Shown piece after piece: positions 1-59,621 of a DNA stretch of 64,000 nt. The notes under the pieces are model-generated. The model worked only from the letters and a program-made list of their open reading frames with translations, did not search any database and had not been told where the DNA came from. Every line of letters starts with the position of its first letter. Positions within the stretch are counted from its first letter, which is position 1. This DNA is from Eledone cirrhosa (taxonomy: Eukaryota). Location of the stretch: positions 2,170,001 through 2,234,000 of the forward strand of contig OZ024764.1 in assembly GCA_964016885.1 (NCBI GenBank), given 5' to 3'. A program made the position numbers and the translations under genes.

Positions 1-2564
1 GATCTGCTAATATGCAGATCTGGCTGATCAGTGGATCTGCTAATATGCAGATCTGGCTGATCAGTGGATCTGCTAATATGCAAATCAGGCTGATCAGTGG
101 ATCTGCTAATATGCAGATCTGGCTGATCAGTGGATCTGCTAATATGCAGATCTGGCTGATCAGTGGATCTGCTAATATGTAGATCTGGCTGATCAGTGGA
201 TCTGCTAATATGCAGATCTGGCTGATCAGTGGATCTGCTAATATGCAGATCTGGCTGATCAGTGGATCTGCTAATATGCAAATCAGGCTGATCAGTGGAT
301 CTGCTAATATGCAGATCTGGCTGATCAGTGGATCTGCTAATATGCAGATCTGGCTGATCAGTGGATCTGCTAATATGTAGATCTGGCTGATCAGTGGATC
401 TGCTAATATGTAGATCTGGCTGATCAGTGGATCTGCTAATATGCAGATCTGGCTGATCAGTGGATCTGCTAATATGCAGATCTGGCTGATCAGTGGATCT
501 GCTAATATGTAGATCTGGCTGATCAGTGGATCTGCTAATATGCAGATCTGGCTGATCAGTGGATCTGCTAATATGTAGATCTGGCTGATCAGTGGATCTG
601 CTAATATGCAAATCAGGCTGATCAGTGGATCTGCTAATATGCAGATCTGGCTGATCAGTGGATCTGCTAATATGCAGATCTGGCTGATCAGTGGATCTGC
701 TAATATGTAGATCTGGCTGATCAGTGGATCTGCTAATATGCAGATCTGGCTGATCAGTGGATCTGCTAATATGCAAATCAGGCTGATCAGTGGATCTGCT
801 AATATGCAGATCTGGCTGATCAGTGGATCTGCTAATATGCAGATCTGGCTGATCAGTGGATCTGCTAATATGTAGATCTGGCTTATCAGTGGATCTGCTA
901 ATATGCAGATCTGGCTGATCAGTGGATCTGCTAATATGTAGATCTGGCTGATCAGTGGATCTGCTAATATGCAGATCTGGCTGATCAGTGGATCTGCTAA
1001 TATGCAGATCTGGCTGATCAGTGGATCTGCTAATATGCAAATCAGGCTGATCAGTGGATCTGCTAATATGCAGATCTGGCTGATCAGTGGATCTGCTAAT
1101 ATGCAGATCTGGCTGATCAGTGGATCTGCTAATATGTAGATCTGGCTGATCAGTGGATCTGCTAATATGTAGATCTGGCTGATCAGTGGATCTGCTAATA
1201 TGCAGATCTGGCTGATCAGTGGATCTGCTAATATGTAGATCTGGCTGATCAGTGGATCTGCTAATATGCAAATCAGGCTGATCAGTGGATCTGCTAATAT
1301 GCAGATCTGGCTGATCAGTGGATCTGCTAATATGCAGATCTGGCTGATCAGTGGATCTGCTAATATGTAGATCTGGCTGATCAGTGGATCTGCTAATATG
1401 CAGATCTGGCTGATCAGTGGATCTGCTAATATGCAAATCAGGCTGATCAGTGGATCTGCTAATATGCAGATCTGGCTGATCAGTGGATCTGCTAATATGC
1501 AGATCTGGCTGATCAGTGGATCTGCTAATATGTAGATCTGGCTTATCAGTGGATCTGCTAATATGCAGATCTGGCTGATCAGTGGATCTGCTAATATGTA
1601 GATCTGGCTGATCAGTGGATCTGCTAATATGCAGATCTAGCTGATCAGTGGATCTGCTAATATGCAGATCTGGCTGATCAGTGGATCTGCTAATATGCAA
1701 ATCAGGCTGATCAGTGGATCTGCTAATATGCAGATCTGGCTGATCAGTGGATCTGCTAATATGCAGATCTGGCTGATCAGTGGATCTGCTAATATGTAGA
1801 TCTGGCTGATCAGTGGATCTGCTAATATGTAGATCTGGCTGATCAGTGGATCTGCTAATATGCAGATCTGGCTGATCAGTGGATCTGCTAATATGTAGAT
1901 CTGGCTGATCAGTGGATCTGCTAATATGTAGATCTGGCTGATCAGTAGATCTGCTAATATGTAGATCTGGCTGATCAGTGGATCTGCTAATATGTAGATC
2001 TGGCTGATCAGTGGATCTGCTAATATGCAAATCAGGCTGATCAGTGGATCTGCTAATATGCAAATCAGGCCGATCAGTGGATCTGCTAATATGCAAATCA
2101 GGCTGATCAGTGGATCTGCTAATATGCAAATCAGGCTGATCAGTGGATCTGCTAATATGCAAATCAGGCCGATCAGTGGATCTGCTAATATGCAAATCAG
2201 GTTGATCGTTGGATCTGCTAATATGCAGATCTGGCTGATCAGTGGATCTGCTAATATGCAAATCAGGCCGATCAGTGGATCTGCTAATATGCAAATCAGG
2301 CCGATCAGTGGATCTGCTAATATGCAAATCAGGCTGATCAGTGGATCTGCTAATATGCAAATCAGGCCGATCAGTGGATCTGCTAATATGCAAATCAGTG
2401 GATCTGCTAATATGCAAATCAGGCTGATCAGTGGATCTGCTAATATGCAAATCAGGCCGATCAGTGGATCTGCTAATATGCAAATCAGGCCGATCAGTGG
2501 ATCTGCTAATATGCAAATCAGGCCGATCAGTGGATCTGCTAATATGCAAATCAGGCCGATCAGT
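1..2564. repeat. 33-bp tandem satellite (GATCTGCTAATATGCAGATCTGGCTGATCAGTG), about 77 units, runs off the window start
   Basis: Direct 33-bp periodicity with variants TGTAGATC, TGCAAATCAGG and GGCCGATC. Confidence 0.98.
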
Positions 2565-2710
2565 GAGTGTATATTTCAGAAAATATCATATATTTTCACT
2601 AGCTCTGACAGTTGGGAGGTAAGCAAAATAAGGTACATTCGTGTCTGCCATTTTGTTTATATGCCAACACAAGAGCAAGAATGAAGGGGTTATTCTAATT
2701 ATTACATATA

Positions 2711-3885: not shown

Positions 3886-3904
3886 TATATATATATATAT
3901 ATAT

Positions 3905-4513
3905 AAGTATGTATACATATATATATATACAGACATACAGTAGTATGTATATATCTACATACATGCACACATATATATGTACGTATGGGTTTACTGAACA
4001 TTTATTATAATGCTCGGTTTGTTTGTAAACAAACAAACAGCCCGAATTAAGCCGTACAGTGTTCGGCAACCATCGTTGCCCTTTTGTTCAACACTGACAA
4101 AGGAACGATATACTAGTTTCTAGCTTATTAGCTATCATCAGCACCGTATACCTTCCTGTCAGATGATTGAACATTTGAAAGTATATACTTTCCTTATGCA
4201 TATTAACGGCTGAGCAGCCTAATTTGCATATCGAGTGAGTTAGTCAGCCGGGCGCACCGAAAACGATAAATGGAAAAGAATGAAATGAAATTTCATTTCC
4301 CACTCATAGTACGGCTGATACTTAAATATAAGTATGTATACGTACATACATATATGTGTACAGACGTACAGTAGTATGTATATATATACACACATGCACA
4401 CATGTATACATGTATACATGTATACATATATGTATGTACGTATACATACTTATATTTAAGTATCAGCCGTACTAAGAGTGAGAAATTTCATTTCATTTCA
4501 TTCTTTTCCATTT
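3905..4513 (-). mobile_element. Diverged dispersed copy (just over one unit) of the 468-bp HHR repeat, with 5' fold-back at 4267-4513
   Basis: Colinear with the reverse complement of the 43.7-51.4 kb monomer; terminally redundant. Confidence 0.9.
4086..4172 (-). ncRNA. Type I hammerhead ribozyme
   Basis: Minus strand reads ACGGTG-CTGATGA-TAGCT aata AGCTA-GAAAC ta GTA-TATCGT; distal helix I AAGG/CCTT, CTGACA/TGTCAG, GTTCAA/TTGAAC. Confidence 0.85.
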
Positions 4514-4558
4514 ATATATATATATATACATGTACACATTTTCATGCACACACACACA

Positions 4559-7592: not shown

Positions 7593-7751
7593 AAGGAAAG
7601 TCAATTAAATTGAGCCCAGTTTATGACTGGTACATTGTCTACCTTGCTTTCAAGGTTGAGGAAAAGGAAGTTAACCTCGGTGGGATTTGAAGCAGAAGAA
7701 ATACTTCAAAGAGTTTCTTCTGACATTCAAACGATTCTGCCAACAACTCGG

Positions 7752-8714
7752 TTACCCCAGCTAATAACCCACCCAACCCCCTCAGGCCCCCTCCTGTTAC
7801 CCCCGGCTAATAACCCACCCTACCCCCACAGGCCCTCTCCTGTTACCCCCGGCTAATAACCCACCCTACCCCCACAGGCCCTCTCCTGTTACCCCCGGCT
7901 AATAACCCACCCTACCCCCACAGGCCCTCTCCTGTTACCCCCGGCTAATAACCCACCCTACCCCCACAGGCCCTCTCCTGTTACCCCCGGCTAATAACCC
8001 ACCCTACCCCCACAGGCCCTCTCCTGTTACCCCCGGCTAATAACCCACCCTACCCCCACAGGCCCTCTCCTGTTACCCCCGGCTAATAACCCACCCTACC
8101 CCCACAGGCCCTCTCCTGTTACCCCCGGCTAATAACCCACCCTACCCCCACAGGCCCTCTCCTGTTACCCCCGGCTAATAACCCACCCTACCCCCACAGG
8201 CCCTCTCCTGTTACCCCCGGCTAATAACCCACCCTACCCCCACAGGCCCTCTCCTGTTACCCCCGGCTAATAACCCACCCTACCCCCACAGGCCCTCTCC
8301 TGTTACCCCCAGCTAATAACCCACCCAACCCCCTCAGGCCCCCTCCTGTTACCCCCGGCTAATAACCCACCCTACCCCCACAGGCCCTCCCCTGTTACCC
8401 CCGGCTAATAACCCACCCAACCCCCTCAGGCCCCCTCCTGTTACCCCCGGCTAATAACCCACCCTACCCCCCACAGGCCCTCTCCTGTTACCCCGGCTAA
8501 TAACCCACCCAACCCCCTCAGTCCCCCTCCTGTTACCCCGGCTAATAACCCACCCAACCCCCTCAGTCCCCCTCCTGTTACCCCGGCTAATAACCCACCC
8601 AACCCCCTCAGGCCCCCTCCTGTTACCCCGGCTAATAACCCACCCAACCCCCTCAGGCCCCCTCCTGTTACCCCCGGCTAATAACCCACCCTACCCCCAC
8701 AGGCCCTCTCCTGC
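7752..8714. repeat. 46-bp C-rich minisatellite, about 21 units
   Basis: Unit GGCTAATAACCCACCCTACCCCCACAGGCCCTCTCCTGTTACCCCC, period 46. Confidence 0.97.
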
Positions 8715-8809: not shown

Positions 8810-10085
8810 TTCAGTAATCAGAACAAGGGAGGTAGGTGTAAAAGCCTAACTCACTATCTTCAATTTGGTTTTCGTCCCAGCCCTTACCTATGGTCATGAA
8901 TCTTGTGTAATGACTGAAAGAATGATTGTGAATACAAGTGGCTGAAATAGGGTTCTTCCGAAGGGTCTTTGGAGTTACGTTACTCGATAGAGCTCGTAGC
9001 TCGTAGCTCGTAGATCAGAGAGTCAAACTAGGTGCAGCTGTTACTTCACTAAATTGAGAGATTACAGTTCTGATACTACAGACATGTGGTTAGAATGTGT
9101 CAGGAAAGAATTTCTTAATTGAGAGATCACAGCTCTGATACTACAGACATGTGGTTAGAATGTCTCAGGAAAGAATCTCTTAATTGAGAGATCACAGCTC
9201 TGATACTACAGACATGTGGTTAGAATGTCTCAGGAAAGAATCTCTTAATTGAGAGATCACAGCTCTGATACTACAGACATGTGGTTAGAATGTCTCAGGT
9301 AAGAATCTCTGAATTGAGAGATCACAGCTCTGATACTACAGACATGTGGTTAGAATGTCTCAGGTAAGAATCTCTGAATTGAGAGATCACAGCTCTGATA
9401 CTATAGACATGTGGTTAGAATGTCTGAGGAAAGAATCTCTTAATTGAGAGATCACAGCTCTGATACTACAGACATGTGGTTAGAATGTCTCAGGAAAGAA
9501 TCTCTGAATTGAGAGATCACAGCTCTGATACTACAGACATGTGGTTAGAATGTCTCAGGAAAGAATCTCTGGATTGAGAGATCACAGCTCTGATACTACA
9601 GACATGTGGTTAGAATGTCTCAGGAAAGAATCTCTGAATTGAGAGGTCACAGCTCTGATACTACAGACATGTGGTTAGAATGTCTCAGGAGAGAATCTCT
9701 GGATTGAGAGATCACAGCTCTGATACTACAGACATGTGGTTAGAATGTCTCAGGAAAGAATCTCTGGATTGAGAGATCACAGCTCTGATACTACAGACAT
9801 GTGGTTAGAATGTCTCAGGAAAGAATCTCTGAATTGAGAGGTCACAACTCTGATACTACAGACATGTGGTTAGAATGTCTCAGGAGAGAATCTCTGGATT
9901 GAGAGATCACAGCTCTGATACTACAGACATGGGGTTGAAACCAACTGGCAGGAGACTCGGAGTTAGACCCTTGGCAAGATGGTTGGCTAACATCTATGAG
10001 CTTGGCTGGTCTTGCTTGAGAATCCAGCCAAATCAGTTGGAGACGGTTACTTCTGACAAAATCCATTGGAAAAGGTGTTTGAGGA
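8810..10085 (+). mobile_element. RTE-like LINE 3' fragment containing a 65-bp tandem expansion (about 9054-9930, about 13 units)
   Basis: Degenerate translation VFVPALTYGHES..MTER and IERSQL..Y.HVVRMSQERI; period 65. Confidence 0.85.
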
Positions 10086-17084: not shown

Positions 17085-18197
17085 CATCATCATCGTTTAA
17101 TGTCTATCTTCCACGCTAGCATGGGTTACACGGGAGTTGTCCCTCTTGAGGCAAGGTTGGTCGGGTGACCGTGTCTCGCTCGTATAGGACTATCTGACAG
17201 GTTTTCTACGGCTGGATGCCCTTCCTAACAACAACCATATTTACAGTGTGGACTGGGAGGTTTTTACCGTGTTACCTACACGGCCACATTACAGCGTGGA
17301 CTGTGTTTTTTTGTTGTGACACCTACACGGCCACATTACAGCGTGGACTGTCTTTTTTTGTTGTGACACCTACACAACCACATTACAGCGTGGACTGTGT
17401 GTTTTTTGTCATGACACCTACACGGCCACATTACAGCGTGGACTGTGTTTTTTTGTTGTGACACCTACACGGCCACATTACAGCGTGGACTGTCTTTTTT
17501 TGTTGTGACACCTACACAACCACATTACAGCGTGGACTGTGTGTTTTTTGTCATGACACCTACACGGCCACATTACAGCGTGGACTGTGTTTTTTTGTTG
17601 TGACACCTACACGGCCACATTACAGCGTGGACTGTCTTTTTTTGTTGTGACACCTACACAACCACATTACAGCGTGGACTGTGTGTTTTTTGTCATGACA
17701 CCTACACGGCCACATTACAGCGTGGACTGTGTTTTTTTGTTGTGACACCTACACGGCCACATTACAGCGTGGACTGTCTTTTTTTGTTGTGACACCTACA
17801 CAACCACATTACAGCGTGGACTGTGTGTTTTTTGTCATGACACCTACACGGCCACATTACAGCGTGGACTGTGTGTTTTTGTCGTGTTACCTACACAGCC
17901 ACATAACAGTGTGGTCTGTGTATTTCTTTTTGTCGTGACACCTACATGATCTCGATCTCATTATCTCATTTATTTAGGACTGGATGTTGTGGTACCAACT
18001 TTACAGAGAGAGGGTGGTGTGGGTGGGAGAGGGGTAGTTGGGGTAGTGGGTTGGGGTGTATATTTGGTTAAGAGGTGCCTACTGACTGTAGGTTTCGCTT
18101 TGTACTTAGGCAAGGCGGGTCTCCTGTATTACTGCGTAGCGCCAAAGCTCTCGGTCCAGCGACATTGTCCTGGAGAGGTGTAAATGTGCAAGGTCCG
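17085..18197 (-). mobile_element. RTE 3' fragment with tandem expansion of a ~45-bp 3'UTR unit (17265-17945)
   Basis: Matches the RTE 3'UTR; unit GACACCTACACGGCCACATTACAGCGTGGACTGT repeats with a 3-unit higher-order period. Confidence 0.9.
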
Positions 18198-23627: not shown

Positions 23628-24020
23628 TCATCATCATCATCATCATCATTTTACATCCACTTTTCCCTGCTTGCAAGGGTGGGACAGGAACTGATTCTGG
23701 CTTGATTTCTACAGCTGGATGCCCTTCCTAACACCAACCTCATTTACAGTGAGTGCTGGGTGCTTTTTTGCCATGGCACCTCCACAACCACTTTACAGTG
23801 AGTGCTGGGTGCTTTTTTGCCGTGGCACCTCCACGACCACTTTGCAGTGGAATGATAGGGACCCTAGTCCCTATCATCTCATTTCTACAACTGAGTAAAC
23901 TGGAGCAATGTGAAATAAAGTGTCTTGCTCAAGGAAACAACACATCACCCGGTCTGAGAATTGAACTCACAACCTTTTGATTGCAAGGCCAATGCTCTAA
24001 CCACTAAGCCATGTGCCTCC
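23628..24020 (-). mobile_element. tRNA/CORE-like/RTE-tail SINE copy
   Basis: Reverse complement of 14662-15010. Confidence 0.92.
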
Positions 24021-24273: not shown

Positions 24274-25179
24274 ATCTGGCTGATTCTACTTCTGCGGGTT
24301 CTTTCAGACACGTCTGTTATGTCCGGAGCAAATTTTATCACTGGGGTGTTGTCATCAAAACAACCCCTCAAAAAAACCTTCTGTCCACTCTTGTCATGCC
24401 ATTGGCTGTTTTTACTCCGCGTCATCACAAGTACTGGTCAATATCTGCTGCCACACAGTTCATCAACTATTTTCCGTCCGACATATTTCAATGGAGTCAT
24501 GCTGGGTTCAGTACTTCACACGTCTGCTCACACTTCAGGGTAAGCACCCACACATACTAGAATAAACAGTGTGAGCAGATGTGTGAAGTACTGAACCCAG
24601 CATGACTCCATTGAAATATCACCATCATCATTTCATTTTACGTCCGCTTTTCCCTGCTTGCAAGGGTGGGACGGGAACTGATTCTGGCTTGATTTCTACA
24701 GCTGGATGCCCTTCCTAACACCAACCTCATTTACAGTGAGTGCTGGGTGCTTTTTTTTGCCGTGGCACCTCCACGACCACTTTGCAGTGGAATGATAGGG
24801 ATCCCAGTCCTATCATCTCATTTCTACAGCTGAGTAAACTGGAGCAATGTGAAATAAAGTGTCTTGCTCAAGGAAACAACACATCACCCAGTCTGAGACT
24901 TGAACTCACAACCTTTCGATTGCAAGCCCAATGCTCTAACCACTAAGCCATGTGCCTCCATGTCGAAATATGTCGGACAGAAAATAGTTGATGAACCGTG
25001 TGGCAGCAGATACTGACCAGAACTTGTGATGACATGGAGTAAAAACAGCTAATGGCATGACAAGAGTGGAAAGAGGGTTTTTTGAGGGGTTGTTTTGATG
25101 ACAACACCCCAGTGATAAAATTTGCTCTGGACATAACAGACGTGTCTGAGAGAACCCGCAGAAGTAGAATCAGCCAGAT
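24274..25179. repeat. Fold-back inverted duplication (~260-bp arms) with a SINE inserted in the right arm (about 24620-24960, minus strand)
   Basis: Arms are diverged reverse complements; the insert matches the SINE family. Confidence 0.9.
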
Positions 25180-42660: not shown

Positions 42661-43016
42661 ACAGAGATAACCAGTACAAACACTACAACTTGACCTTTGA
42701 CTTTTCAAATGTTGACCTCCTGACCTCTGCCTCCACAAATCTGTGTCACTCAATTAGCTGAAACTCTTTTAAAATATGCAAGTTACCATGGTAACCAAAT
42801 CTAGAAAAGAAAGGTTGTTAACTTCGTAGTAGCTACACCTGCTAGACATAGCAGCCAAACTCCCTTAAATCACACCCTAGTTGTATGGTTCTATGTATGT
42901 ATGCATATATATATATATATATATATATGCATATATATATATACATATATAGATAAATCTACCACAATATACGGTAGTGTCCAATCCGTATGAAGAACTC
43001 AATGAAGTCCAAATAT

Positions 43017-43049
<33 letters not shown>

Positions 43050-43056
43050 ATACATG

Positions 43057-43096
<40 letters not shown>

Positions 43097-43098
43097 TG

Positions 43099-43196
<98 letters not shown>

Positions 43197-43202
43197 CGTG
43201 TA

Positions 43203-43490
<288 letters not shown>

Positions 43491-43504
43491 TATATATGTA
43501 TACA

Positions 43505-43538
<34 letters not shown>

Positions 43539-43544
43539 CGTGTA

Positions 43545-43646
<102 letters not shown>

Positions 43647-43650
43647 CATG

Positions 43651-43681
<31 letters not shown>

Positions 43682-43682
43682 G

Positions 43683-46600
43683 TTGAAACAAAATGAAAAC
43701 GAAATTTCATTTCTCACTCTTAGTATGGCACTTACTTATATAAATTCAGGCTGTTCAGTTTGTTTACAAACGAACAAAGCGACGTTAGCGCCGCTAAACT
43801 GATACGTGCATATATGTATGTGTACCTGTATGCATATGTATGTATATATGTATATATATATATATATATGTGCATGCTACTGTACGTCTGTATACATATA
43901 TGTATGTACGTATACATGCATACTTACATTTAAGTAAGTGCCATACTAAGAGTGAGAAATGAAATTTCGTTTTCATTTTGTTTCAATTTATCGTTTTCGG
44001 TATGCCTGACCGATTTAACTCACTCAATATGCAAATTAGGCTGCTCAGCCGTTAATTTTCATAAGGAAAGTATATACTTTCGAACGTTCAACTATCTGGC
44101 AGATGGGTAAACGGTGCTGATGATAGCTAACAAGCTTGAAACTAGTACATCGTTCCTGTGTCAGTGTTGAACAAAAAGGTGACGTGGTTGCCTTAACACC
44201 GTATGGCATAAATTCAGGCTGTTCAGTTTGTTTACAAACGAACAAAGCGACGTTAGCGCCGCTAAACTGATACGTGCATATATGTATGTGTACCTGTATG
44301 CATATGTATGTATATATGTATATATATATATATATATGTGCATGCTACTGTACGTCTGTATACATATATGTATGTACGTATACATGCATACTTACATTTA
44401 AGTAAGTGCCATACTAAGAGTGAGAAATGAAATTTCGTTTTCATTTTGTTTCAATTTATCGTTTTCGGTATGCCTGACCGATTTAACTCACTCAATATGC
44501 AAATTAGGCTGCTCAGCCGTTAATTTTCATAAGGAAAGTATATACTTTCGAACGTTCAACTATCTGGCAGATGGGTAAACGGTGCTGATGATAGCTAACA
44601 AGCTTGAAACTAGTACATCGTTCCTGTGTCAGTGTTGAACAAAAAGGTGACGTGGTTGCCTTAACACCGTATGGCATAAATTCAGGCTGTTCAGTTTGTT
44701 TACAAACGAACAAAGCGACGTTAGCGCCGCTAAACTGATACGTGCATATATGTATGTGTACCTGTATGCATATGTATGTATATATGTATATATATATATT
44801 ATATATATGTGCATGCTACTGTACGTCTGTATACATATATGTATGTACGTATACATGCATACTTACATTTAAGTAAGTGCCATACTAAGAGTGAGAAATG
44901 AAATTCGTTTTCATTTGTTTCAATTATCGTTTTCGGTATGCCTGACCGATTTAACTCACTCAATATGCAAATTAGGCTGCTCAGCCGTTAATTTTCATAA
45001 GGAAAGTATATACTTTCGAACGTTCAACTATCTGGCAGATGGGTAAACGGTGCTGATGATAGCTAACAAGCTTGAAACTAGTACATCGTTCCTGTGTCAG
45101 TGTTGAACAAAAAGGTGACGTGGTTGCCTTAACACCGTATGGCATAAATTCAGGCTGTTCAGTTTGTTTACAAACGAACAAAGCGACGTTAGCGCCGCTA
45201 AACTGATACGTGCATATATGTATGTGTACCTGTATGCATATGTATGTATATATGTATATATATATATATATATGTGCATGCTACTGTACGTCTGTATACA
45301 TATATGTATGTACGTATACATGCATACTTACATTTAAGTAAGTGCCATACTAAGAGTGAGAAATGAAATTTCGTTTTCATTTTGTTTCAATTTATCGTTT
45401 TCGGTATGCCTGACCGATTTAACTCACTCAATATGCAAATTAGGCTGCTCAGCCGTTAATTTTCATAAGGAAAGTATATACTTTCGAACGTTCAACTATC
45501 TGGCAGATGGGTAAACGGTGCTGATGATAGCTAACAAGCTTGAAACTAGTACATCGTTCCTGTGTCAGTGTTGAACAAAAAGGTGACGTGGTTGCCTTAA
45601 CACCGTATGGCATAAATTCAGGCTGTTCAGTTTGTTTACAAACGAACAAAGCGACGTTAGCGCCGCTAAACTGATACGTGCATATATGTATGTGTACCTG
45701 TATGCATATGTATGTATATATGTATATATATATATATATATGTGCATGCTACTGTACGTCTGTATACATATATGTATGTACGTATACATGCATACTTACA
45801 TTTAAGTAAGTGCCATACTAAGAGTGAGAAATGAAATTTCGTTTTCATTTTGTTTCAATTTATCGTTTTCGGTATGCCTGACCGATTTAACTCACTCAAT
45901 ATGCAAATTAGGCTGCTCAGCCGTTAATTTTCATAAGGAAAGTATATACTTTCGAACGTTCAACTATCTGGCAGATGGGTAAACGGTGCTGATGATAGCT
46001 AACAAGCTTGAAACTAGTACATCGTTCCTGTGTCAGTGTTGAACAAAAAGGTGACGTGGTTGCCTTAACACCGTATGGCATAAATTCAGGCTGTTCAGTT
46101 TGTTTACAAACGAACAAAGCGACGTTAGCGCCGCTAAACTGATACGTGCATATATGTATGTGTACCTGTATGCATATGTATGTATATATGTATATATATA
46201 TATATATATGTGCATGCTACTGTACGTCTGTATACATATATGTATGTACGTATACATGCATACTTACATTTAAGTAAGTGCCATACTAAGAGTGAGAAAT
46301 GAAATTTCGTTTTCATTTTGTTTCAATTTATCGTTTTCGGTATGCCTGACCGATTTAACTCACTCAATATGCAAATTAGGCTGCTCAGCCGTTAATTTTC
46401 ATAAGGAAAGTATATACTTTCGAACGTTCAACTATCTGGCAGATGGGTAAACGGTGCTGATGATAGCTAACAAGCTTGAAACTAGTACATCGTTCCTGTG
46501 TCAGTGTTGAACAAAAAGGTGACGTGGTTGCCTTAACACCGTATGGCATAAATTCAGGCTGTTCAGTTTGTTTACAAACGAACAAAGCGACGTTAGCGCC

Positions 46601-49600
46601 GCTAAACTGATACGTGCATATATGTATGTGTACCTGTATGCATATGTATGTATATATGTATATATATATATATATATGTGCATGCTACTGTACGTCTGTA
46701 TACATATATGTATGTACGTATACATGCATACTTACATTTAAGTAAGTGCCATACTAAGAGTGAGAAATGAAATTTCGTTTTCATTTTGTTTCAATTTATC
46801 GTTTTCGGTATGCCTGACCGATTTAACTCACTCAATATGCAAATTAGGCTGCTCAGCCGTTAATTTTCATAAGGAAAGTATATACTTTCGAACGTTCAAC
46901 TATCTGGCAGATGGGTAAACGGTGCTGATGATAGCTAACAAGCTTGAAACTAGTACATCGTTCCTGTGTCAGTGTTGAACAAAAAGGTGACGTGGTTGCC
47001 TTAACACCGTATGGCATAAATTCAGGCTGTTCAGTTTGTTTACAAACGAACAAAGCGACGTTAGCGCCGCTAAACTGATACGTGCATATATGTATGTGTA
47101 CCTGTATGCATATGTATGTATATATGTATATATATATATATATATGTGCATGCTACTGTACGTCTGTATACATATATGTATGTACGTATACATGCATACT
47201 TACATTTAAGTAAGTGCCATACTAAGAGTGAGAAATGAAATTTCGTTTTCATTTTGTTTCAATTTATCGTTTTCGGTATGCCTGACCGATTTAACTCACT
47301 CAATATGCAAATTAGGCTGCTCAGCCGTTAATTTTCATAAGGAAAGTATATACTTTCGAACGTTCAACTATCTGGCAGATGGGTAAACGGTGCTGATGAT
47401 AGCTAACAAGCTTGAAACTAGTACATCGTTCCTGTGTCAGTGTTGAACAAAAAGGTGACGTGGTTGCCTTAACACCGTATGGCATAAATTCAGGCTGTTC
47501 AGTTTGTTTACAAACGAACAAAGCGACGTTAGCGCCGCTAAACTGATACGTGCATATATGTATGTGTACCTGTATGCATATGTATGTATATATGTATATA
47601 TATATATATATATGTGCATGCTACTGTACGTCTGTATACATATATGTATGTACGTATACATGCATACTTACATTTAAGTAAGTGCCATACTAAGAGTGAG
47701 AAATGAAATTTCGTTTTCATTTTGTTTCAATTTATCGTTTTCGGTATGCCTGACCGATTTAACTCACTCAATATGCAAATTAGGCTGCTCAGCCGTTAAT
47801 TTTCATAAGGAAAGTATATACTTTCGAACGTTCAACTATCTGGCAGATGGGTAAACGGTGCTGATGATAGCTAACAAGCTTGAAACTAGTACATCGTTCC
47901 TGTGTCAGTGTTGAACAAAAAGGTGACGTGGTTGCCTTAACACCGTATGGCATAAATTCAGGCTGTTCAGTTTGTTTACAAACGAACAAAGCGACGTTAG
48001 CGCCGCTAAACTGATACGTGCATATATGTATGTGTACCTGTATGCATATGTATGTATATATGTATATATATATATATATATGTGCATGCTACTGTACGTC
48101 TGTATACATATATGTATGTACGTATACATGCATACTTACATTTAAGTAAGTGCCATACTAAGAGTGAGAAATGAAATTTCGTTTTCATTTTGTTTCAATT
48201 TATCGTTTTCGGTATGCCTGACCGATTTAACTCACTCAATATGCAAATTAGGCTGCTCAGCCGTTAATTTTCATAAGGAAAGTATATACTTTCGAACGTT
48301 CAACTATCTGGCAGATGGGTAAACGGTGCTGATGATAGCTAACAAGCTTGAAACTAGTACATCGTTCCTGTGTCAGTGTTGAACAAAAAGGTGACGTGGT
48401 TGCCTTAACACCGTATGGCATAAATTCAGGCTGTTCAGTTTGTTTACAAACGAACAAAGCGACGTTAGCGCCGCTAAACTGATACGTGCATATATGTATG
48501 TGTACCTGTATGCATATGTATGTATATATGTATATATATATATATATATGTGCATGCTACTGTACGTCTGTATACATATATGTATGTACGTATACATGCA
48601 TACTTACATTTAAGTAAGTGCCATACTAAGAGTGAGAAATGAAATTTCGTTTTCATTTTGTTTCAATTTATCGTTTTCGGTATGCCTGACCGATTTAACT
48701 CACTCAATATGCAAATTAGGCTGCTCAGCCGTTAATTTTCATAAGGAAAGTATATACTTTCGAACGTTCAACTATCTGGCAGATGGGTAAACGGTGCTGA
48801 TGATAGCTAACAAGCTTGAAACTAGTACATCGTTCCTGTGTCAGTGTTGAACAAAAAGGTGACGTGGTTGCCTTAACACCGTATGGCATAAATTCAGGCT
48901 GTTCAGTTTGTTTACAAACGAACAAAGCGACGTTAGCGCCGCTAAACTGATACGTGCATATATGTATGTGTACCTGTATGCATATGTATGTATATATGTA
49001 TATATATATATATATATGTGCATGCTACTGTACGTCTGTATACATATATGTATGTACGTATACATGCATACTTACATTTAAGTAAGTGCCATACTAAGAG
49101 TGAGAAATGAAATTTCGTTTTCATTTTGTTTCAATTTATCGTTTTCGGTATGCCTGACCGATTTAACTCACTCAATATGCAAATTAGGCTGCTCAGCCGT
49201 TAATTTTCATAAGGAAAGTATATACTTTCGAACGTTCAACTATCTGGCAGATGGGTAAACGGTGCTGATGATAGCTAACAAGCTTGAAACTAGTACATCG
49301 TTCCTGTGTCAGTGTTGAACAAAAAGGTGACGTGGTTGCCTTAACACCGTATGGCATAAATTCAGGCTGTTCAGTTTGTTTACAAACGAACAAAGCGACG
49401 TTAGCGCCGCTAAACTGATACGTGCATATATGTATGTGTACCTGTATGCATATGTATGTATATATGTATATATATATATATGTGCATGCTACTGTACGTC
49501 TGTATACATATATGTATGTACGTATACATGCATACTTACATTTAAGTAAGTGCCATACTAAGAGTGAGAAATGAAATTTCGTTTTCATTTTGTTTCAATT

Positions 49601-51411
49601 TATCGTTTTCGGTATGCCTGACCGATTTAACTCACTCAATATGCAAATTAGGCTGCTCAGCCGTTAATTTTCATAAGGAAAGTATATACTTTCGAACGTT
49701 CAACTATCTGGCAGATGGGTAAACGGTGCTGATGATAGCTAACAAGCTTGAAACTAGTACATCGTTCCTGTGTCAGTGTTGAACAAAAAGGTGACGTGGT
49801 TGCCTTAACACCGTATGGCATAAATTCAGGCTGTTCAGTTTGTTTACAAACGAACAAAGCGACGTTAGCGCCGCTAAACTGATACGTGCATATATGTATG
49901 TGTACCTGTATGCATATGTATGTATATATGTATATATATATATATATATGTGCATGCTACTGTACGTCTGTATACATATATGTATGTACGTATACATGCA
50001 TACTTACATTTAAGTAAGTGCCATACTAAGAGTGAGAAATGAAATTTCGTTTTCATTTTGTTTCAATTTATCGTTTTCGGTATGCCTGACCGATTTAACT
50101 CACTCAATATGCAAATTAGGCTGCTCAGCCGTTAATTTTCATAAGGAAAGTATATACTTTCGAACGTTCAACTATCTGGCAGATGGGTAAACGGTGCTGA
50201 TGATAGCTAACAAGCTTGAAACTAGTACATCGTTCCTGTGTCAGTGTTGAACAAAAAGGTGACGTGGTTGCCTTAACACCGTATGGCATAAATTCAGGCT
50301 GTTCAGTTTGTTTACAAACGAACAAAGCGACGTTAGCGCCGCTAAACTGATACGTGCATATATGTATGTGTACCTGTATGCATATGTATGTATATATGTA
50401 TATATATATATATATATGTGCATGCTACTGTACGTCTGTATACATATATGTATGTACGTATACATGCATACTTACATTTAAGTAAGTGCCATACTAAGAG
50501 TGAGAAATGAAATTTCGTTTTCATTTTGTTTCAATTTATCGTTTTCGGTATGCCTGACCGATTTAACTCACTCAATATGCAAATTAGGCTGCTCAGCCGT
50601 TAATTTTCATAAGGAAAGTATATACTTTCGAACGTTCAACTATCTGGCAGATGGGTAAACGGTGCTGATGATAGCTAACAAGCTTGAAACTAGTACATCG
50701 TTCCTGTGTCAGTGTTGAACAAAAAGGTGACGTGGTTGCCTTAACACCGTATGGCATAAATTCAGGCTGTTCAGTTTGTTTACAAACGAACAAAGCGACG
50801 TTAGCGCCGCTAAACTGATACGTGCATATATGTATGTGTACCTGTATGCATATGTATGTATATATGTATATATATATATATATATGTGCATGCTACTGTA
50901 CGTCTGTATACATATATGTATGTACGTATACATGCATACTTACATTTAAGTAAGTGCCATACTAAGAGTGAGAAATGAAATTTTGTTTTCATTTTGTTTC
51001 AATTTATCGTTTTCGGTATGCCTGACCGATTTAACTCACTCAATATGCAAATTAGGCTGCTCAGCCGTTAATTTTCATAAGGAAAGTATATACTTTCGAA
51101 CGTTCAACTATCTGGCAGATGGGTAAACGGTGCTGATGATAGCTAACAAGCTTGAAACTAGTACATCGTTCCTGTGTCAGTGTTGAACAAAAAGGTGACG
51201 TGGTTGCCTTAACACCGTATGGCATAAATTCAGGCTGTTCAGTTTGTTTACAAACGAACAAAGCGACGTTAGCGCCGCTAAACTGATACGTGCATATATG
51301 TATGTGTACCTGTATGCATATGTATGTATATATGTATATATATATATATATATGTGCATCCTACTGTACGTCTGTATACATATATGTATGTACGTATACA
51401 TGCATACTTAC
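43683..51411 (+). mobile_element. 468-bp HHR-containing tandem array (retrozyme-like), about 16.4 units, preceded by a ~55-bp inverted fragment (43683-43738)
   Basis: The ORF track recurs every 468 bp (once 464); 16 HHR copies; long (TA)n on both flanks. Confidence 0.93.
44086..44172 (+). ncRNA. Type I hammerhead ribozyme, first of 16 array copies; predicted cleavage after GUA at 44147
   Basis: AACGGTG-CTGATGA-tAGCT aaca AGCTt-GAAAC ta GTA-CATCGTT; distal helix I GGG/CCT, CTGGCA/TGTCAG, GTTCAAC/GTTGAAC. Confidence 0.88.
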
Positions 51412-52685
<1,274 letters not shown>

Positions 52686-52758: not shown

Positions 52759-55700
52759 TTATCTCCAGCCTGTATAGGTTGGCCACTGGTGTAGGAGGGA
52801 GTTTGTTGCTGCTGCCCTTAGGTTTCCCTCGTGTCTTGCTGTGGGCTCATCCGGGATCCTGGATAACAAGGTGTCGAGATGTTTCTTAAAGACATCCACC
52901 TCCACGTCATGCAAGTCTCGCAGATGCCTCGGCAGCCTGTTGAAGAGTTGAGGGCCCTTGAATCCCAGGCTATTGCAATACCTGCTCCTTATTCTAGATG
53001 TGGAAGACGGGACCTTTGGCACCACACAGTGACGTCCTGTTCGACGGTTGGTCCAGCTCCCAATGCCAAAGTTTGGTGCTAGTCCCTCCAGGATTTTCCA
53101 CATGTAGATCACTGCGTATCTCTCCCGTCTTCGCTCCAAGGAGTAGAGGTTCAGTTCCTTCAGCCTCTCCCAGTAGCTTGTCTCCCTCATCTTGGCAATC
53201 CTCTTGGTGTAGCTTCGCTGGATTGCCTCAAGCTCTGTGGTTAGTTTGACACTATGGGGTGACCACAGCTGGGAGCAGTAGTCCAGGCGGCTTAGGACAA
53301 AAGTCCTCCACAGTGTCAACATGGTGTCTCGATCTCTTGTAAGGAAAGTCCTCAAGATCCAGCCAGCGAATCGTCTACATGCTGTCGCCACCTTCATGAT
53401 GTGTGAAGAAAAAGATGCATCATCGCTCATGTCTATGCCCAGGTCTCGTATCGATTTTGACACGGGGATATCGGTCCCTCCTGGTCCTGTGTAGCTGTGT
53501 TCCGCTATATTTGTGTTTGTGTTTGCAGGTTTGTATTGTAGGGCTTGAAATTTGCCAGCATTAAACTGCATGTTGTTTTCTTCCGCCCATCTGTATATGG
53601 CATCCAGATCCTGCTGTAAGAGGGCAGCGTCAGCCGGGTTTTTGATTGCCTGTGCTACCTTAGTGTCATCAGCATAGCTAGTGAGGGATGTTGTTGCATG
53701 CACCACAGAGGGCATGTCCGAGAGAGCCACCAAAAACAGTAGTGGTCCCAGGACTGTCCCCTGAGGCACCCCACTTGTTATCGGTGTTTCTCTCGAGAGG
53801 GCCCCATTTGCTGCGACTGCCTGGCTTCTGTCCCTCAGGAAGCCATGCAGCCACTCACCTACTTTTCCAGTTATGCCGAGTCCGTGTAGTTTGTGACATA
53901 TCATTCCGTGGTCGACCTTGTCAAAGGCCTTCGCAAAGTCAAGATATATCACGTCTACATGTGAGCTGTCTAGTAGCTGTCTCAGTACCCAGTCGTAGTG
54001 ATGTAGCAGCTGTGTAAGGCAGCTTCTTCCTGGGCGGAAGCCATGTTGCGTGCTAGTCAGGCGGTCATTTTCTTCGAGGAAAGTGATTAGTTTCTTTCTG
54101 ATGACTCGCTCCATGACCTTACTGATATGCGACGTCAGGGAGACTGGCCTATAGTTCTTGGCCTCCGCTCTACTACCTCCTTTATGGATAGGGCATATTG
54201 TGCCTTCTTTCAGCTCCCTGGGTAGTACACCGCTAGCCAAGGAGCTTCTGAAGAGCATCTTCAGTGGAGTTGCTAAGGCCCGCTTACATATTTTTAGGAG
54301 AACTGCTGGGAATCCATCAGGTCCAGCAGCCGAGTCTGTTCTAATTTCATCAATGGCGTACACCACATCCTCCTCCGTTATGTCTATGTGGTTGATGGTT
54401 GCCATTTCTTGATGTAGTGTTGTGGCATCAAAGAACTCCTCTGGCTTCGTTATTTGCATGTGCCTCAGTGGACATGTGAAGACACTTTTGTACTGTTCGT
54501 TCAGTATTTCACATATCTCTTGGGGATTTTCGGTTAATGAACTGTCCGTGTGGAAGAGTGGTCCAATCTTGCAGTGTACTGAGGCAGTTTCTTTTGCAAA
54601 TTTAAAGAAGGCCTTAGGGTTTGTTTTAATGTTTTCTATGGCCCTGTTCTCTTTCCTTGCCCTCTCATTCTCATGTGAAAGCTTGAGTGCAATCTCGGTG
54701 TCAAGTAGTGCACGTTTCAAATAGGATTCCTTCTTGTTTTGGTTTTGTTGACTATTCAACTGGTTTGAGAGTTTAGTTCTACGTCTCATAAGGATTTTCC
54801 TATCTCTGGGAATAAGATTTTTGTGTCTGTTTGCCTCTTTCTCCGGGACACACTTTTTGCATATGGTGTGTATCGTTGTCATGAAGTGTTGAAATTGTGT
54901 GTTAGTGTCTTGTGTGGCGATGTTTGCACTCCATGTTTGCTTCCGGATTTCATTCTTAATCTTCTTCCAGTCAGCCCCGTAGAAGTTAAGGCTGGATAGC
55001 GTCCCGGAGCTTCTTGGTGGTTTTGTCTCTGTTGGTTCTCTTGGACCACATATCATTAGCTCTACCAAGTTATGATCCGAGAGAATTGTTGGTGTCACCT
55101 TTACATTGTGGATGAGCACTTCGTTGTTTGTAAAACAGAGGTCCAGGACATTTTCGCCTCTTGTTGGGAGGAGTATTGCTTGCTCCATGAACAGCCTGTG
55201 TGTGAGGGCCAGCAGGGATTCCGTCTGTCTCTGTTCTATTGACGTCATTCCAGGGAGGAGGTGGCCCTCAGGCCATTTGACCTTTGGTAGGTTGAAGTCT
55301 CCCAGCAGTAGGATGTTGAGACCCTGGTCCAGTTTGTCAAGGACCTCTTCTATCCTACTTAGGCTATCCTCAAATTTACCCTCATGACTGGGGGCATCGG
55401 GCGGCCGATATGTGACACATATTACCGTCTGTAGTTGCTTCATATGTATTATCAGTGTGTCACAGACTGAGTTTGAATGTGTCAACAGTACAATTGGTGT
55501 GACATCTTCACGGATATACAGAGCAACCCCACCATGAGTTCTCTCCTTCCTGTCCGAACGAAATACAGTATATTTCGGTATATGTATTTCTGCATCTGCT
55601 ATACTGCTTGTCAGGTGCGTTTCGGTTAGTGCCATGCATAGTGCTTGATTGCTTATGGCTAAGTCTCCCAGGTAGGAAATTTTACTCATGTTGCTGAGTT

Positions 55701-55800
55701 TCACCAGGCCCCTGACATTCAGCAGCAGCACTGGTGTGACTTTTGGGGTGCCAGTAATGGCTGTCGGTATGACACCTGGTCTGGTGTCAGCGGCGGCCAC
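52759..55800 (-). CDS. LINE ORF2: APE endonuclease + reverse transcriptase, 1013 aa
   Basis: LNVRGL, LTETHL, YRPP, LGDFNLP, LDLCF, SDHN; [54 protein letters not shown]. Confidence 0.97.
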
Positions 55801-56681
55801 TCTGGGTCCCTTAACTGCGGTGGTCTCGAGTGCTGGTGTGGATGACCCTGGCTCTGGAGACGATGCAGCCAGGTCAGCTGTCCCACAATCTTCTCTGCCA
55901 TCACTAAAAAATTTTTCTGATCTGCTGCTGCCATCTGTATCTCGTCGGCATGTGCGTGCCTTCTCCTTGTTGGTGCAGCACGCGCGACATCAGCATACTT
56001 CTGGAGCGGCTTATTTCGGCTTTGGCTGGGGCATGTTGCGCGAGTATGATGGGCATAGTTCGTTTGAGACCTAGGGTGGGCGAATCTGCATCCCATCCCT
56101 GTCTCTCCATGCCAGCATGTCCCGTTCTTGAAAAACTTGCACATTACTTGGTGTTTTTTGCTCCCAGTGTCTCGGTGCTTTCTGTTCTTTCTTTGAACAG
56201 TTGTCCACTGGTCCCTCTGCGCTTGGTTCTCCTTCGGAAGGTGATTTCGCTTTTCACCTTTGCCCTTAGCTTGTTGGTTGCCCGGCCTGCCCTTCCTGCC
56301 TGTAGCGGAGGGTATATCATTTTCTTTCAGGTCCGTGCTTGTGCTCTCCTCCTTTTCTTTTTCCCTTTCCTTTTCCTCTTCCTTTTCCCTCTCCTTCTCC
56401 TCATCCCTCCCTTCGGTTTTCTCCTCCCTGAGGACACGGCTTAGCATCGCCATATGAGGCGCTATGAGGACATACGCCTTCTCAATTTCTTTTCTCTTTC
56501 TCTCTATCTGTACCAGGGTCCTCATAAACCCATGGCTCTTCAGGTTCTCCGCCATCTTTTTGCTTGGTGGAGACCCATCAGCCATAGTCCACCCCTTGAT
56601 CAAAACCGCTAGTTCAATCTTCGACCAGTTTCGCTGACTCCTGATTTCACATTTTTCCCATTTTTCCTGCATGCAGTCCAT
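55719..56681 (-). CDS. LINE ORF1 (~320 aa from MDCMQEK) with Myb/SANT-like motif and CCCH zinc finger
   Basis: NWSKIELAVLI...MAENLKSHGFMRTLVQIERKRKEIEKAY; CKFFKNGTCWHGETGMGCRFAH; the upstream ORF extension is mostly CT-repeat UTR. Confidence 0.8.
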   Translation of the reverse strand: MDCMQEKWEKCEIRSQRNWSKIELAVLIKGWTMADGSPPSKKMAENLKSHGFMRTLVQIERKRKEIEKAYVLIAPHMAMLSRVLREEKTEGRDEEKEREKEEEKEREKEKEESTSTDLKENDIPSATGRKGRPGNQQAKGKGEKRNHLPKENQAQRDQWTTVQRKNRKHRDTGSKKHQVMCKFFKNGTCWHGETGMGCRFAHPRSQTNYAHHTRATCPSQSRNKPLQKYADVARAAPTRRRHAHADEIQMAAADQKNFLVMAEKIVGQLTWLHRLQSQGHPHQHSRPPQLRDPEWPPLTPDQVSYRQPLLAPQKSHQCCC

Positions 56682-56900
56682 TTCGCTGTGGAGGGGAGAA
56701 AGAGGGACAGTGGGAGGTGTAGAGTAGAGGTTAGAGAGGGACAGAGTGAGGGAGGGAGATAGAGATATAACTCCAGTGAGAGAAAAAGAGAAACAGAAGA
56801 AAAGAAAAGAAAAGGGGGAGACAGAAGAGGGGAGCGAGAGAGATAGAGGGGAGCGAGAGAGATAGCGGGAAGAGTGGGGGGGGTCAGAGGGAGAGAGAGA

Positions 56901-56932
<32 letters not shown>

Positions 56933-57616
56933 CTCGTTGATCTAGAGAGAGGGAGAAAGAGAGCTCGTTGATCGAGAGAGAGAGAGGGGGAGAGAGAGAG
57001 AGAGAGGAAGGAGAGAGATAGAGACAGCGTGAGAGCGTGAGCAACTGCAGTTCATAAATATAAAAATAAATTTTTAAATCTAAATTTAAATTAATGAATG
57101 GGAGAAACCGGAAACAGAGATATAGAAACACGATGTAAATGTCTGTTTACAAATATACAGAGTTATTGTAATATCAGCATATCATACAAGAAACAACGAA
57201 ATCGGGTCAAATACAGATAAGATTATACAAAATCAAACAAGATTATATCAAATTAAATTATGTTACTCAGAAATATCAAAGTTAATACAAAATTGCTTAA
57301 GCTAAACCAAAATGCTCTGTATGAAACAAAAATAGAAAGCACGTGTGTGTGTTGTCTCCCATGAATGAATCATACAGTGAAAATAAACATGTTCAAAACG
57401 GTAATATATGTAAAATATACTTCAAAATAATTGCGACAAAGCACAAAAACTTATCTTTTTTGTATGTTTTCCTTGTCCTCTGAAGAATTAAAACCATACA
57501 TAAATCCGATTACTGTCGATTTAAAATATTAAAATTTCAAAATCCGGAGAGACGACAATCCACATCTTATACCAACAAGTGCCAAGCCTATATATATATA
57601 TATATGTATATATATG

Positions 57617-58203: not shown

Positions 58204-58225
58204 GTAGATATGTATATATAGATCT

Positions 58226-58279
58226 AAGTATGTATGTATACGTACATACATATATGTATACAGACGTACAGTAGCACGC

Positions 58280-58310
<31 letters not shown>

Positions 58311-58842
58311 TATACACATATGCATACAGGTACACATACATATATGCACGCATCAGTTTAGCCGACGTTTATTATAACGCAGCTTTGTTCGCTTGTTTGT
58401 CAACAAACTGAACAGCCTGAATTTATGCCATACGGTGTTAAGGCAACCACGTCACCTTTTTGTTCAATACTGACACAGGAACGATGTACTAGTTTCAAGC
58501 TTGTTAGCGATCATCAGCACCGTTTACCCATCTGCCAGATAGTTGAACGTTCGAAAGTATATACTTTCCTTATGAAAATTAACGGCTGAGCAGTATATAC
58601 TTTCGAACGTTCAACTATCTGGCAGATGGGTAAACGGTGCTGATGATAGCTAACAACCTTGAAACTAGTACATCGTTCCTGTGTCAGTGTTGAACAAAAA
58701 GGTGACGTGGTTGCCTTAACACCGTATGGCATAAATTCAGGCTGTTCAGTTTGTTTACAAACGAACAAAGCGGCGTTATAATAAGCGTCTGCTAAACTGA
58801 TGCGTGCATATATGTATGTGTACCTGTATGCATATGTGTATA

Positions 58843-58873
<31 letters not shown>

Positions 58874-58985
58874 GCATGCTACTGTACGTCTGTATACATA
58901 TATGTATGTACGTATACATACATACTTACATTTAAGTAAGTGCCATACTAAGAGTGAGAAATGAAATTTCGTTTTCATTTTTTTT
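58226..58985. mobile_element. Head-to-head fold-back copy of the 468-bp family with two HHRs (58480-58524 -, 58633-58677 +)
   Basis: Both arms match the array monomer; junction near 58590. Confidence 0.92.
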
Positions 58986-59002
58986 TTTCAACTTATATAT
59001 AG

Positions 59003-59117: not shown

Positions 59118-59621
59118 TAGATAGATAAATCTACCACAATATACGGTAGTGTCCAATCCGTATGAAGAACTCAATGTAATCCAAATATCATGGAAAGAGA
59201 AGATGTATTCAAAAGTTTTTTCGATGAAAATCACAGGAAAACAGAGTCAAGATCAATTAATTGTCTCTACTTTAGGCACAAGGCCAGCAATTACCCAGTG
59301 CATTACTGGTACTTTATTTTATCGACCCCGTAAGGATGAAAGGCAAAGTCAACCTCGGCGGGATTTGAACTCAGATCGTAAAGGCACGTAACTATGTTGG
59401 AAAGCATGGCGTCCGACCCTCTACTGATACTGCCAATCCAGAGTCAAGATAAATTAATAAAAACAATGTATAAAAACAAAGAAACAGTTCCTTATATTAA
59501 AAAATTCATCAGTTTACGATCGTTTCTAGGATATATGTGTGTGTATTGGTATGTATATTATATAAATCTATGTAAACATTTTACAAACTATCAGAGGAAA
59601 TACCTACACATATATATGCTG

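What the first reader, a model, noticed from the sequence alone, without database searches (positions are those of the whole stretch)
43683..51411. Hammerhead-ribozyme satellite: about 16 near-identical 468-bp units resembling a retrozyme concatemer
Seen: every unit has an intact type I HHR core (CUGAUGA, GAAA, GUA site), a 7-bp proximal helix I extended through bulges by about 16 more bp, and a palindromic ACUAGU in place of helix III. The unit has no credible ORF. Known: non-LTR retrozymes and the newt and schistosome HHR satellites are tandem repeats whose multimeric transcripts self-cleave to monomers (circular in retrozymes), and palindromic helix III allows dimeric HHRs. Inference: a transcript through this array would be cut into 468-nt monomers that could circularise. 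This is a candidate circular-RNA retroelement family, long for its class and possibly undescribed in this lineage.
Basis: partly seen in the sequence, partly recalled or inferred. Interest (0 to 1): 0.93.

Follow-up and report, generated by a model that had tools for sequence, protein, structure and literature searches.

The report
Penelope-copied hammerhead RNA repeat family
This array is one insertion of a young, very abundant non-coding repeat with a predicted self-cutting RNA motif; its copies sit in the genome as back-to-back arms with two fixed ends, which indicates that a Penelope-type jumping-gene enzyme likely copied a single small RNA, probably a circle, many times over from both sides of a DNA break.

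Summary
Observation confirmed: 16.4 copies of a 468-bp unit (43740-51413), each with a type I hammerhead motif, plus a 56-bp inverted stub (43683-43738), all inside (TA)n. It is a dispersed family, not a local satellite: 10,391 exact hammerhead cores genome-wide. Copies form head-to-head arms that end at two fixed unit positions 62 nt apart, one of each in all 76 classable pairs. This is the Penelope-like (PLE) 'tail' footprint; the stub is that tail. Variants fixed across whole insertions are enriched for A>G on the RNA strand (16/31 against 24/158). One insertion carries seven clustered A>G changes in 11/11 units of both arms, a haplotype found nowhere else. So one edited RNA unit was copied repeatedly, likely a circle (about 65%). 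Arms do not stop at the ribozyme cut. The unit has a U6-like promoter motif pair. Verdict: a new member of the metazoan non-LTR retrozymes (non-autonomous PLE passengers). Its value is genomic evidence for a proposed rolling-circle step. Not shown: cleavage, RNA, circle, helper PLE. This scan already reported this or sister families on other DNA of this genome.

The parts
43013..43681 (.). (TA)n left flank, the target repeat
43683..43738 (-). Inverted second arm: 56 bp, unit positions q252-q307 (q1 = base after the ribozyme cut). This is the bare PLE-type 'tail' between the two fixed start sites; it lacks the last 5 nt of the usual q312 end
43740..51413 (+). Main arm: 16.4 head-to-tail 468-bp units, inner end q61, outer end q250
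43800..43920 (+). TA-rich long hairpin of the unit (first copy; q121-240); holds most array-fixed A>G changes in the family
43930..43991 (+). 62-nt tail between the two inferred reverse-transcription start sites, q250 (43929) and q312 (43991), first copy
44028..44039 (+). Octamer-containing 12-mer identical to the motif at -78 of one of this genome's U6 genes (first copy; q349-360)
44070..44077 (+). TATA-like box matching the -31 box of this genome's U6 genes (first copy; q391-398); predicted start near q422 (44101)
   Evidence: start site is inference
44087..44172 (+). Type I hammerhead motif with extended helix I (first of 16); core 44110-44154; predicted cut after 44147, repeating every unit to 51163
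51414..52685 (.). (TA)n right flank
58225..58996 (.). Second, independent two-armed insertion of the same family in (TA)n (minus arm ends near q250, plus arm at q312)
3887..4515 (.). Old, diverged two-armed copy (73-83% identity) in (TA)n

Best explanation
The array is one insertion of a dispersed non-coding 468-bp hammerhead-motif repeat, likely written into DNA by a borrowed Penelope-like (PLE) reverse transcriptase-endonuclease that copied one RNA monomer, probably circular, over and over. Steps: (1, inferred, ~0.4) a U6-like promoter in each unit, or read-through from outside, makes multimeric RNA. (2, inferred) The hammerheads, as dimers or with protein help, cut it into 468-nt monomers that a host ligase closes. 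(3, inferred from sequence scars) The structured RNA is A-to-I edited. (4, footprint shown, enzyme inferred, ~0.93) A Neptune/Nematis-type PLE protein cuts both strands of (TA)n; one DNA end primes at q250 and the other at q312. (5, single-unit template ~0.8, closed circle ~0.65) Each polymerase runs round the template for a variable number of turns. (6, shown) The two copies are joined head to head, mostly with 1-4 nt of overlap. Here the q312 copy stopped where the other began, leaving the bare tail, and the q250 copy gave 16.4 units; later DNA-level expansion may have added some.
For: Dispersed: 10,391 exact cores, control 0. Fixed ends: 90 of 117 at q250 and 110 of 121 at q312; 218 of 238 with a TA-rich flank. 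Of 98 head-to-head pairs in 147 loci, 76 had both ends classable and all 76 had one of each; 30 of 30 in loci not chosen on ends (44 pairs, 14 unclassed). Bare-tail arms 9 of 76 against 1.15 expected, p 3.5e-6. Frangieh 2024 showed a PLE protein cutting and extending both strands from two internal sites that delimit the tail. Coding PLEs here show the same two-end pattern in (TA)n and similar hammerheads. Array-fixed substitutions: 16 of 31 A>G against 24 of 158 singletons, p 3e-5; A>G:T>C 16:5. L242: seven clustered A>G in 11 of 11 units, both arms; the only other genome match is an old copy with four of the seven. Daughters of one sub-lineage gain further variants in every unit of both arms (L146 15 of 15, L148 13 of 13). 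L128: a 7-nt loss abutting the cut in 5 of 5 junctions, found at no other locus. Arms cross the cut 372 times and stop there 4 times against 3.1 expected.
Against: No RNA, cleavage or circle was observed. Frangieh 2024 found uncut RNA to be the main substrate in vitro and no RNA-seq reads starting at the cut. 1 of 9 Xenopus dimers cleaved. Some arrays are mixed or periodic: L104, L105, L209, L220; the 27-unit arm at C3:180.04 Mb has 5- and 10-unit blocks, so multi-unit templates or DNA-level expansion also occur. In L031 and L212 a variant fixed in one arm is absent from the other. About 14 of 60 loci chosen on a q250 end look single-armed. The window's own array has no private fixed variant, so the single-template test cannot be applied to it. 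Outside the TA run the strand bias is weak (8:3, p 0.08). Junction deletions are not clearly enriched (6 loci against 2 in a control window). No helper PLE sharing sequence was found in 50 PLE loci.
Confidence: 0.68

Rival explanations
1. PLE-driven insertion from long, uncut linear transcripts of existing arrays, with uniformity made afterwards by unequal exchange or gene conversion in DNA. The hammerhead would be weak or idle.
For: Uncut RNA was the main substrate in vitro. Periodic and mixed arrays exist. A weak excess of inner ends at q397-432 (19 against 10.8, p 0.015, post hoc bin) lies near the predicted start.
Against: Editing of a linear multimer would differ between units, yet A>G is enriched among array-fixed changes and not among singletons. 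The seven-change haplotype and the junction loss have no source array in the assembly. New variants span both inverted arms. No excess of stops at q415-428 (6 against 4.2).
Confidence: 0.15
2. The template is one cut linear monomer, and the polymerase jumps repeatedly from its 5' end to its own 3' end, so no ligation is needed.
For: Explains the single-unit bottleneck and the repeated junction loss equally well. A few arms end within 5 nt of the cut.
Against: Junctions are exact: 10 matches with a loss of 2 nt or more against about 10,400 intact cores, and no excess of stops at the cut in 372 crossings. Jumps are expected to leave stops and added bases (recalled from R2). Added bases were not searched genome-wide.
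Confidence: 0.13
3. An ordinary DNA satellite, or a left-over terminal repeat of a coding PLE, amplified only at DNA level.
For: Li 2026 proposes local amplification of PLE termini. DNA-level block duplication is seen in one array.
Against: At least 922 separate q312 ends, two fixed ends, RNA-strand A>G bias and nested sub-lineages on 9 contigs. No ORF joined to any sampled copy; the three unit matches in PLE loci are separate insertions.
Confidence: 0.04

Closest known systems
Metazoan non-LTR retrozymes (Cervera and de la Pena 2020, PMC7229834; parts 2-4 of 6 read, supplement not readable)
   Same: Non-coding tandem units with one type I hammerhead each, low GC, thousands of copies, palindromic minimal helix III; the U.U at the base of helix II matches axolotl HHR_Amex2, which cleaves best as a dimer. 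Circle-templated copying by PLEs is proposed there.
   Different: That paper shows circles but no insertion footprint; the parts read do not describe two-armed insertions, fixed start sites or editing scars. Here the RNA is not shown. Unit slightly above its 150-450 bp range.
Non-LTR retrozymes as non-autonomous PLE derivatives (Li, Clavereau, Pollet 2026, 10.64898/2026.07.22.740005; parts 1-3 of 5 read, supplements not seen)
   Same: Co-occurrence with PLEs; unit length and copy number within its ranges.
   Different: Rests on sequence similarity to PLE termini in 35 genomes, none molluscan by its class list, and leans to local DNA amplification. Here no such similarity was found, but the PLE insertion footprint is direct.
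Endonuclease-positive PLE insertion units, Neptune/Nematis type (Craig 2021, PMC8557442, passages; Frangieh 2024, PMC11167929, parts 1-2 of 4)
   Same: Partial tandems, adjacent inverted 5'-truncated copy, one-sided tail between two internal start sites, AT-rich or (TA)n targets, hammerhead in the repeat.
   Different: No ORF; tail 62 nt rather than 30-40; AT microhomology at both starts, whereas the anole enzyme started without homology; up to 16 or more full turns per arm.
Newt satellite 2 and schistosome hammerhead satellites (seen only as a passage and reference titles in PMC2220036, and in PMC7229834)
   Same: Hammerhead tandem repeats with an internal promoter (snRNA-type Pol II in newt, Pol III in schistosome).
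   Different: Here the motif pair resembles this genome's U6 rather than U2 promoters; activity untested.

Membership tests
Metazoan non-LTR retrozyme | Head-to-tail units of a few hundred bp, each with a type I hammerhead | tested here: met
   no Rfam model reaches its cut-off
Metazoan non-LTR retrozyme | No coding capacity | tested here: met
Metazoan non-LTR retrozyme | Dispersed, high copy number, co-existing with coding PLEs | tested here: met
Metazoan non-LTR retrozyme | Self-cleavage of the transcript | not testable with these tools
   needs in vitro assay
Metazoan non-LTR retrozyme | Expressed as monomeric circular RNA | not testable with these tools
   no RNA data obtained; indirect genomic support
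Non-autonomous PLE passenger | Adjacent inverted 5'-truncated arm | tested here: met
   98 head-to-head pairs in 147 loci; about 14 of 60 loci single-armed
Non-autonomous PLE passenger | Two fixed internal 3' ends that delimit a tail | tested here: met
   q250 and q312, 76 of 76 classable pairs; 62 nt, longer than the 30-40 nt described
Non-autonomous PLE passenger | Microsatellite target like that of the genome's coding PLEs | tested here: met
Non-autonomous PLE passenger | Sequence shared with the terminal repeat of an identified coding PLE | tested here: inconclusive
   none in 50 loci sampled from 10,597 GIY-YIG candidates; sample small
Autonomous PLE | RT plus GIY-YIG ORF between terminal repeats | tested here: not met
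Plant-type LTR retrozyme | Type III hammerhead in two LTRs around a unique core | tested here: not met
   type I topology, pure tandem
Locus-confined satellite DNA | Few long arrays without retro-insertion marks | tested here: not met
   median arm 650-780 nt
U6-type (type 3 Pol III) promoter | Upstream element and TATA box at the spacing of the host U6 genes | tested here: inconclusive
   both motifs present and kept in old copies, spacing 42 against 46-48 nt; whole-region alignment beat all but about 1 of 200 shuffles for one of five U6 loci only

The most novel reading that the evidence does not exclude
The genome preserves a direct record of rolling-circle reverse transcription of a ribozyme-made RNA circle: a self-promoting, self-cutting 468-nt RNA is edited, circularised and then copied by two PLE polymerases at once from both ends of one break, for up to 16 or more turns. 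The element is an RNA parasite with its own U6-like promoter that hijacks a PLE with which it shares no sequence, and the same route would explain the tandem and inverted structure of PLEs in general.
Probability: 0.55. Interest if true: 0.8.

Novelty: new member of a known kind. Interest (0 to 1): 0.6.

Why it matters
Circle-templated copying by PLE enzymes was proposed in 2014 and 2020. The one in vitro PLE study read here points instead to uncut linear RNA. The searches run listed no paper that, from its title, abstract start or the parts read, shows the step from genome sequence or describes such a family in cephalopods; subscription papers, Repbase/Dfam and two supplements were not seen. 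This family gives a very young 468-nt substrate with mapped start sites, natural marks that trace one template through a whole insertion, and near-intact candidate helper enzymes in the same genome, so the question becomes directly testable. An enzyme that writes many-turn concatemers from a small RNA circle into a chosen repeat would also be of interest as a tool.

Tried and rejected
DNA search of the own genome returned nothing because common words are skipped; patterns were used instead. Rfam: no hammerhead at cut-off; miRNA hits are TA-repeat noise. Sequencing runs: no RNA holder listed; contigs from four runs of unknown kind cannot tell RNA from trace DNA and were not used. Helper search: 50 GIY-YIG loci, at least six coding families, none sharing sequence with the unit; the family with the nearest tail length (64-69 nt, L081 type) shares only a 12-mer that old copies lack, so it is a candidate only. 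The adjacent LINE (52759-55989) was rejected as helper: APE-RT type, no shared end. Enrichment of ligation scars: not supported. Run-off at the ribozyme cut or the predicted start: not supported. An early 59-nt stagger was an alignment overrun; the ends are 62 nt apart. Two apparent same-type pairs were a nested insertion and an arm ending in the internal TA run. 108A>G, first taken as private to L118, proved to be a sub-lineage mark. One script crashed (after printing the unit counts) and one timed out. The newt promoter paper was not held. The host was not identified; a mollusc, probably an octopod, is a guess from recalled SINE motifs, earlier scan notes and bivalve-associated relatives of the PLE protein.
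Full report
Coordinates q1-q468 count within the unit from the base after the predicted ribozyme cut (q1 = window 44148).

OBSERVATION. The array is real: period 468, 16.4 copies, 99% matches, 43740-51413, with 16 hammerhead motifs and 12 of 15 full units identical. The remaining differences are each confined to one unit. The motif has the type I core, a 4-bp helix II closed by U.U, a palindromic 2-bp helix III and a long interrupted helix I. Rfam does not call it (HH9 18.5 bits against 52). Among 12 copies picked to span subfamilies, changes fall at the free core position 7 and loop II, helix pairs are kept in 93% of cells, and two pairs change on both sides (related sequences inflate such counts). 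No useful ORF exists. The first 56 bp of the finding (43683-43738) are an inverted stub, q252-q307, and the whole lies between long (TA)n tracts.

FAMILY. The exact 36-nt core occurs 10,391 times in the 3.0-Gb genome, control 0; a young-subfamily motif occurs 4,465 times; an exact q312 end followed by TA occurs 922 times and a young-type q250 end 478 times (the patterns cover different subfamilies). Two more insertions lie in the window. Earlier notes of this scan describe this or sister families elsewhere in the genome; a look-up by sequence and one by place showed nothing. I had reached the two-armed PLE reading before that call. The leads on editing and on a promoter came from note e1-8803865 and were tested here.

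INSERTION FOOTPRINT. I mapped arms in 147 loci from the start of several hit lists, mostly on contigs C1 and C2, so the sample is not random. Of 279 arm ends not cut by a locus edge, 117 lie near q250, 121 near q312 and 41 elsewhere, partly mapping failures in old or nested copies; 90 are exactly q250 and 110 exactly q312, and 218 of 238 have a TA-rich 30-nt flank. There are 98 head-to-head pairs; 76 have both ends classable and every one has one end of each kind, including 30 of 30 among loci not chosen on ends. 47 of the 76 inner joints overlap by 1-4 nt. Arms cross the ribozyme cut 372 times and stop within 5 nt of it 4 times (3.1 expected). Of 60 loci chosen on a q250 end, 32 showed the opposite end by a strict pattern, 6 ran off the locus, and of the other 22 about 14 look single-armed. 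Craig 2021 (passages) describes this layout for PLEs. Frangieh 2024 (parts 1-2) showed a PLE protein cutting and extending both DNA strands from two internal RNA sites that bound the tail.

HELPER. The genome has 10,597 GIY-YIG candidates, 150 scored. [quoted passage not shown] Three families show two staggered ends in (TA)n, with tails of about 64-69, 42-52 and 38 nt (counted by eye). One has a hammerhead of the same build, with U.U and a palindromic helix III. None of 50 PLE loci shares terminal sequence with the unit, so the helper is unidentified.

TEMPLATE. Variants were called in young units only; units over about 2% diverged, 20 nt at inner ends and the loci chosen on 108A>G were dropped. 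Of 31 distinct substitutions fixed in all covering units (three or more) of an array, 16 are A>G on the hammerhead strand and 5 are T>C; of 158 single-unit substitutions 24 are A>G and 22 T>C (Fisher p 3e-5; outside the ambiguous TA run 8 of 18 against 13 of 130, p 8e-4, but strand bias there only p 0.08). Polarity is relative to the window's unit. This is the pattern expected from A-to-I editing of a template that is then copied whole. Of 40 variants fixed in one arm where the other arm covers the site, 31 are fully shared; 7 of the 9 others come from two separate insertions in one locus, and 2 are real exceptions. The clearest case is L242: seven A>G changes within 47 nt, hitting both promoter-like motifs, in 11 of 11 units of both arms. 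A genome-wide pattern finds these 11 and one old-subfamily copy that has only four of the seven. A sub-lineage with three shared changes sits at 11 loci on 9 contigs, and five of them add further variants in all units of both arms. L128 lacks the 7 nt next to the cut in 5 of 5 junctions, a change found at no other locus. Each such insertion thus passed through one unit. A source array missing from this assembly cannot be excluded. Against uniform simplicity: 8 of 65 arrays have partly shared changes, about four of them truly mixed, and one 27-unit arm has 5- and 10-unit blocks, so multi-unit templates or later DNA expansion also occur. The window's array is the second-longest arm mapped, matches a haplotype seen at five other loci, and shows no block structure. 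That fits one recent event but does not prove 16 turns.

TRANSCRIPTION. Three independent U6 promoter types in this genome share an octamer-like motif at -76 to -78 and a TATA box at -31; the unit has the same 12-mer as one of them at q349 and the same box at q391, spaced 42 rather than 46-48 nt. U2 promoters lack the motif in the 120 nt examined. Old copies keep both motifs. Whole-region alignments were mostly not better than shuffles, and four T4 runs could stop Pol III, so this step is a lead only.

COMPARISON. It works like, and on all testable features belongs to, the metazoan non-LTR retrozymes (Cervera 2020, parts 2-4), which Li 2026 (parts 1-3) treats as non-autonomous PLE derivatives. 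Cervera 2014 (parts 1-2) and 2020 propose circle-templated copying. Frangieh 2024 found that uncut RNA sufficed and that the ribozyme needed protein. The searches named under Why it matters listed no paper showing the step from genomic copies. The supplement of Cervera 2020 could not be read and that of Li 2026 was not seen; either could bear on novelty.

VERDICT. A new member of a known kind. PLE mobilisation is close to certain (~0.93), a single-unit template likely (~0.8), a closed circle probable (~0.65). Interest 0.6, because the family turns a long-proposed step into a defined experiment.

Noticed in passing
window 52759-55989 (-): Uninterrupted 1,076-codon LINE ORF (APE endonuclease plus RT) whose 3' end abuts the array's right (TA)n flank; further ORF-like frame at 55719-57146.
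   Followed up: partly
window 42950-43010 and 59125-59190: The same ~60-nt sequence borders (TA)n tracts twice in the window and a similar start flanks L205; possibly the end of another TA-associated repeat.
   Followed up: no
window 24889-24952 (-): tRNA-like Rfam hit (32.5 bits), probably a SINE head.
   Followed up: no
window 1-2565, 7751-8713, 9052-9936, 17231-17946: Minisatellites of 33, 46, 65 and 47/142 bp; the 47-49-bp unit recurs at 23735, 36308 and 60411.
   Followed up: no
L081, L082, L090, L092 (3' repeat): This abundant young PLE family has a hammerhead-like motif with the U3-A8 core variant reported for Schistosoma in PMC4209133, and a 3' UTR of over 1 kb.
   Followed up: partly
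L159-L178 (G000 C19:31.78-31.84 Mb, C5, C9): U6 genes form a ~1.8-kb tandem cluster; the octamer-like motif sits at about -77, far closer than the vertebrate distal element (recalled); some cluster copies have this region replaced.
   Followed up: partly
L179-L203 (G000 C3:307.35-307.45 Mb): U2 genes form a 2.2-kb tandem cluster and carry a TATA-like box near -32.
   Followed up: no
L116/L157, L124, L152: Young insertions nested inside the TA-rich parts of older copies of the same family: the element carries its own target.
   Followed up: partly
L031:2372-5840: Arms arranged tail to tail around 1.2 kb of TA repeat instead of head to head; unexplained.
   Followed up: no
L104; L144+L145; L151: Periodic variant patterns (3-, 5- and 10-unit blocks); in L104 a 3-unit block appears in both arms, hinting at a multimeric template.
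   Followed up: partly
L264:4653-4986: Old copy with many A>G changes, four at the same sites as in L242: recurrent editing hot spots.
   Followed up: partly
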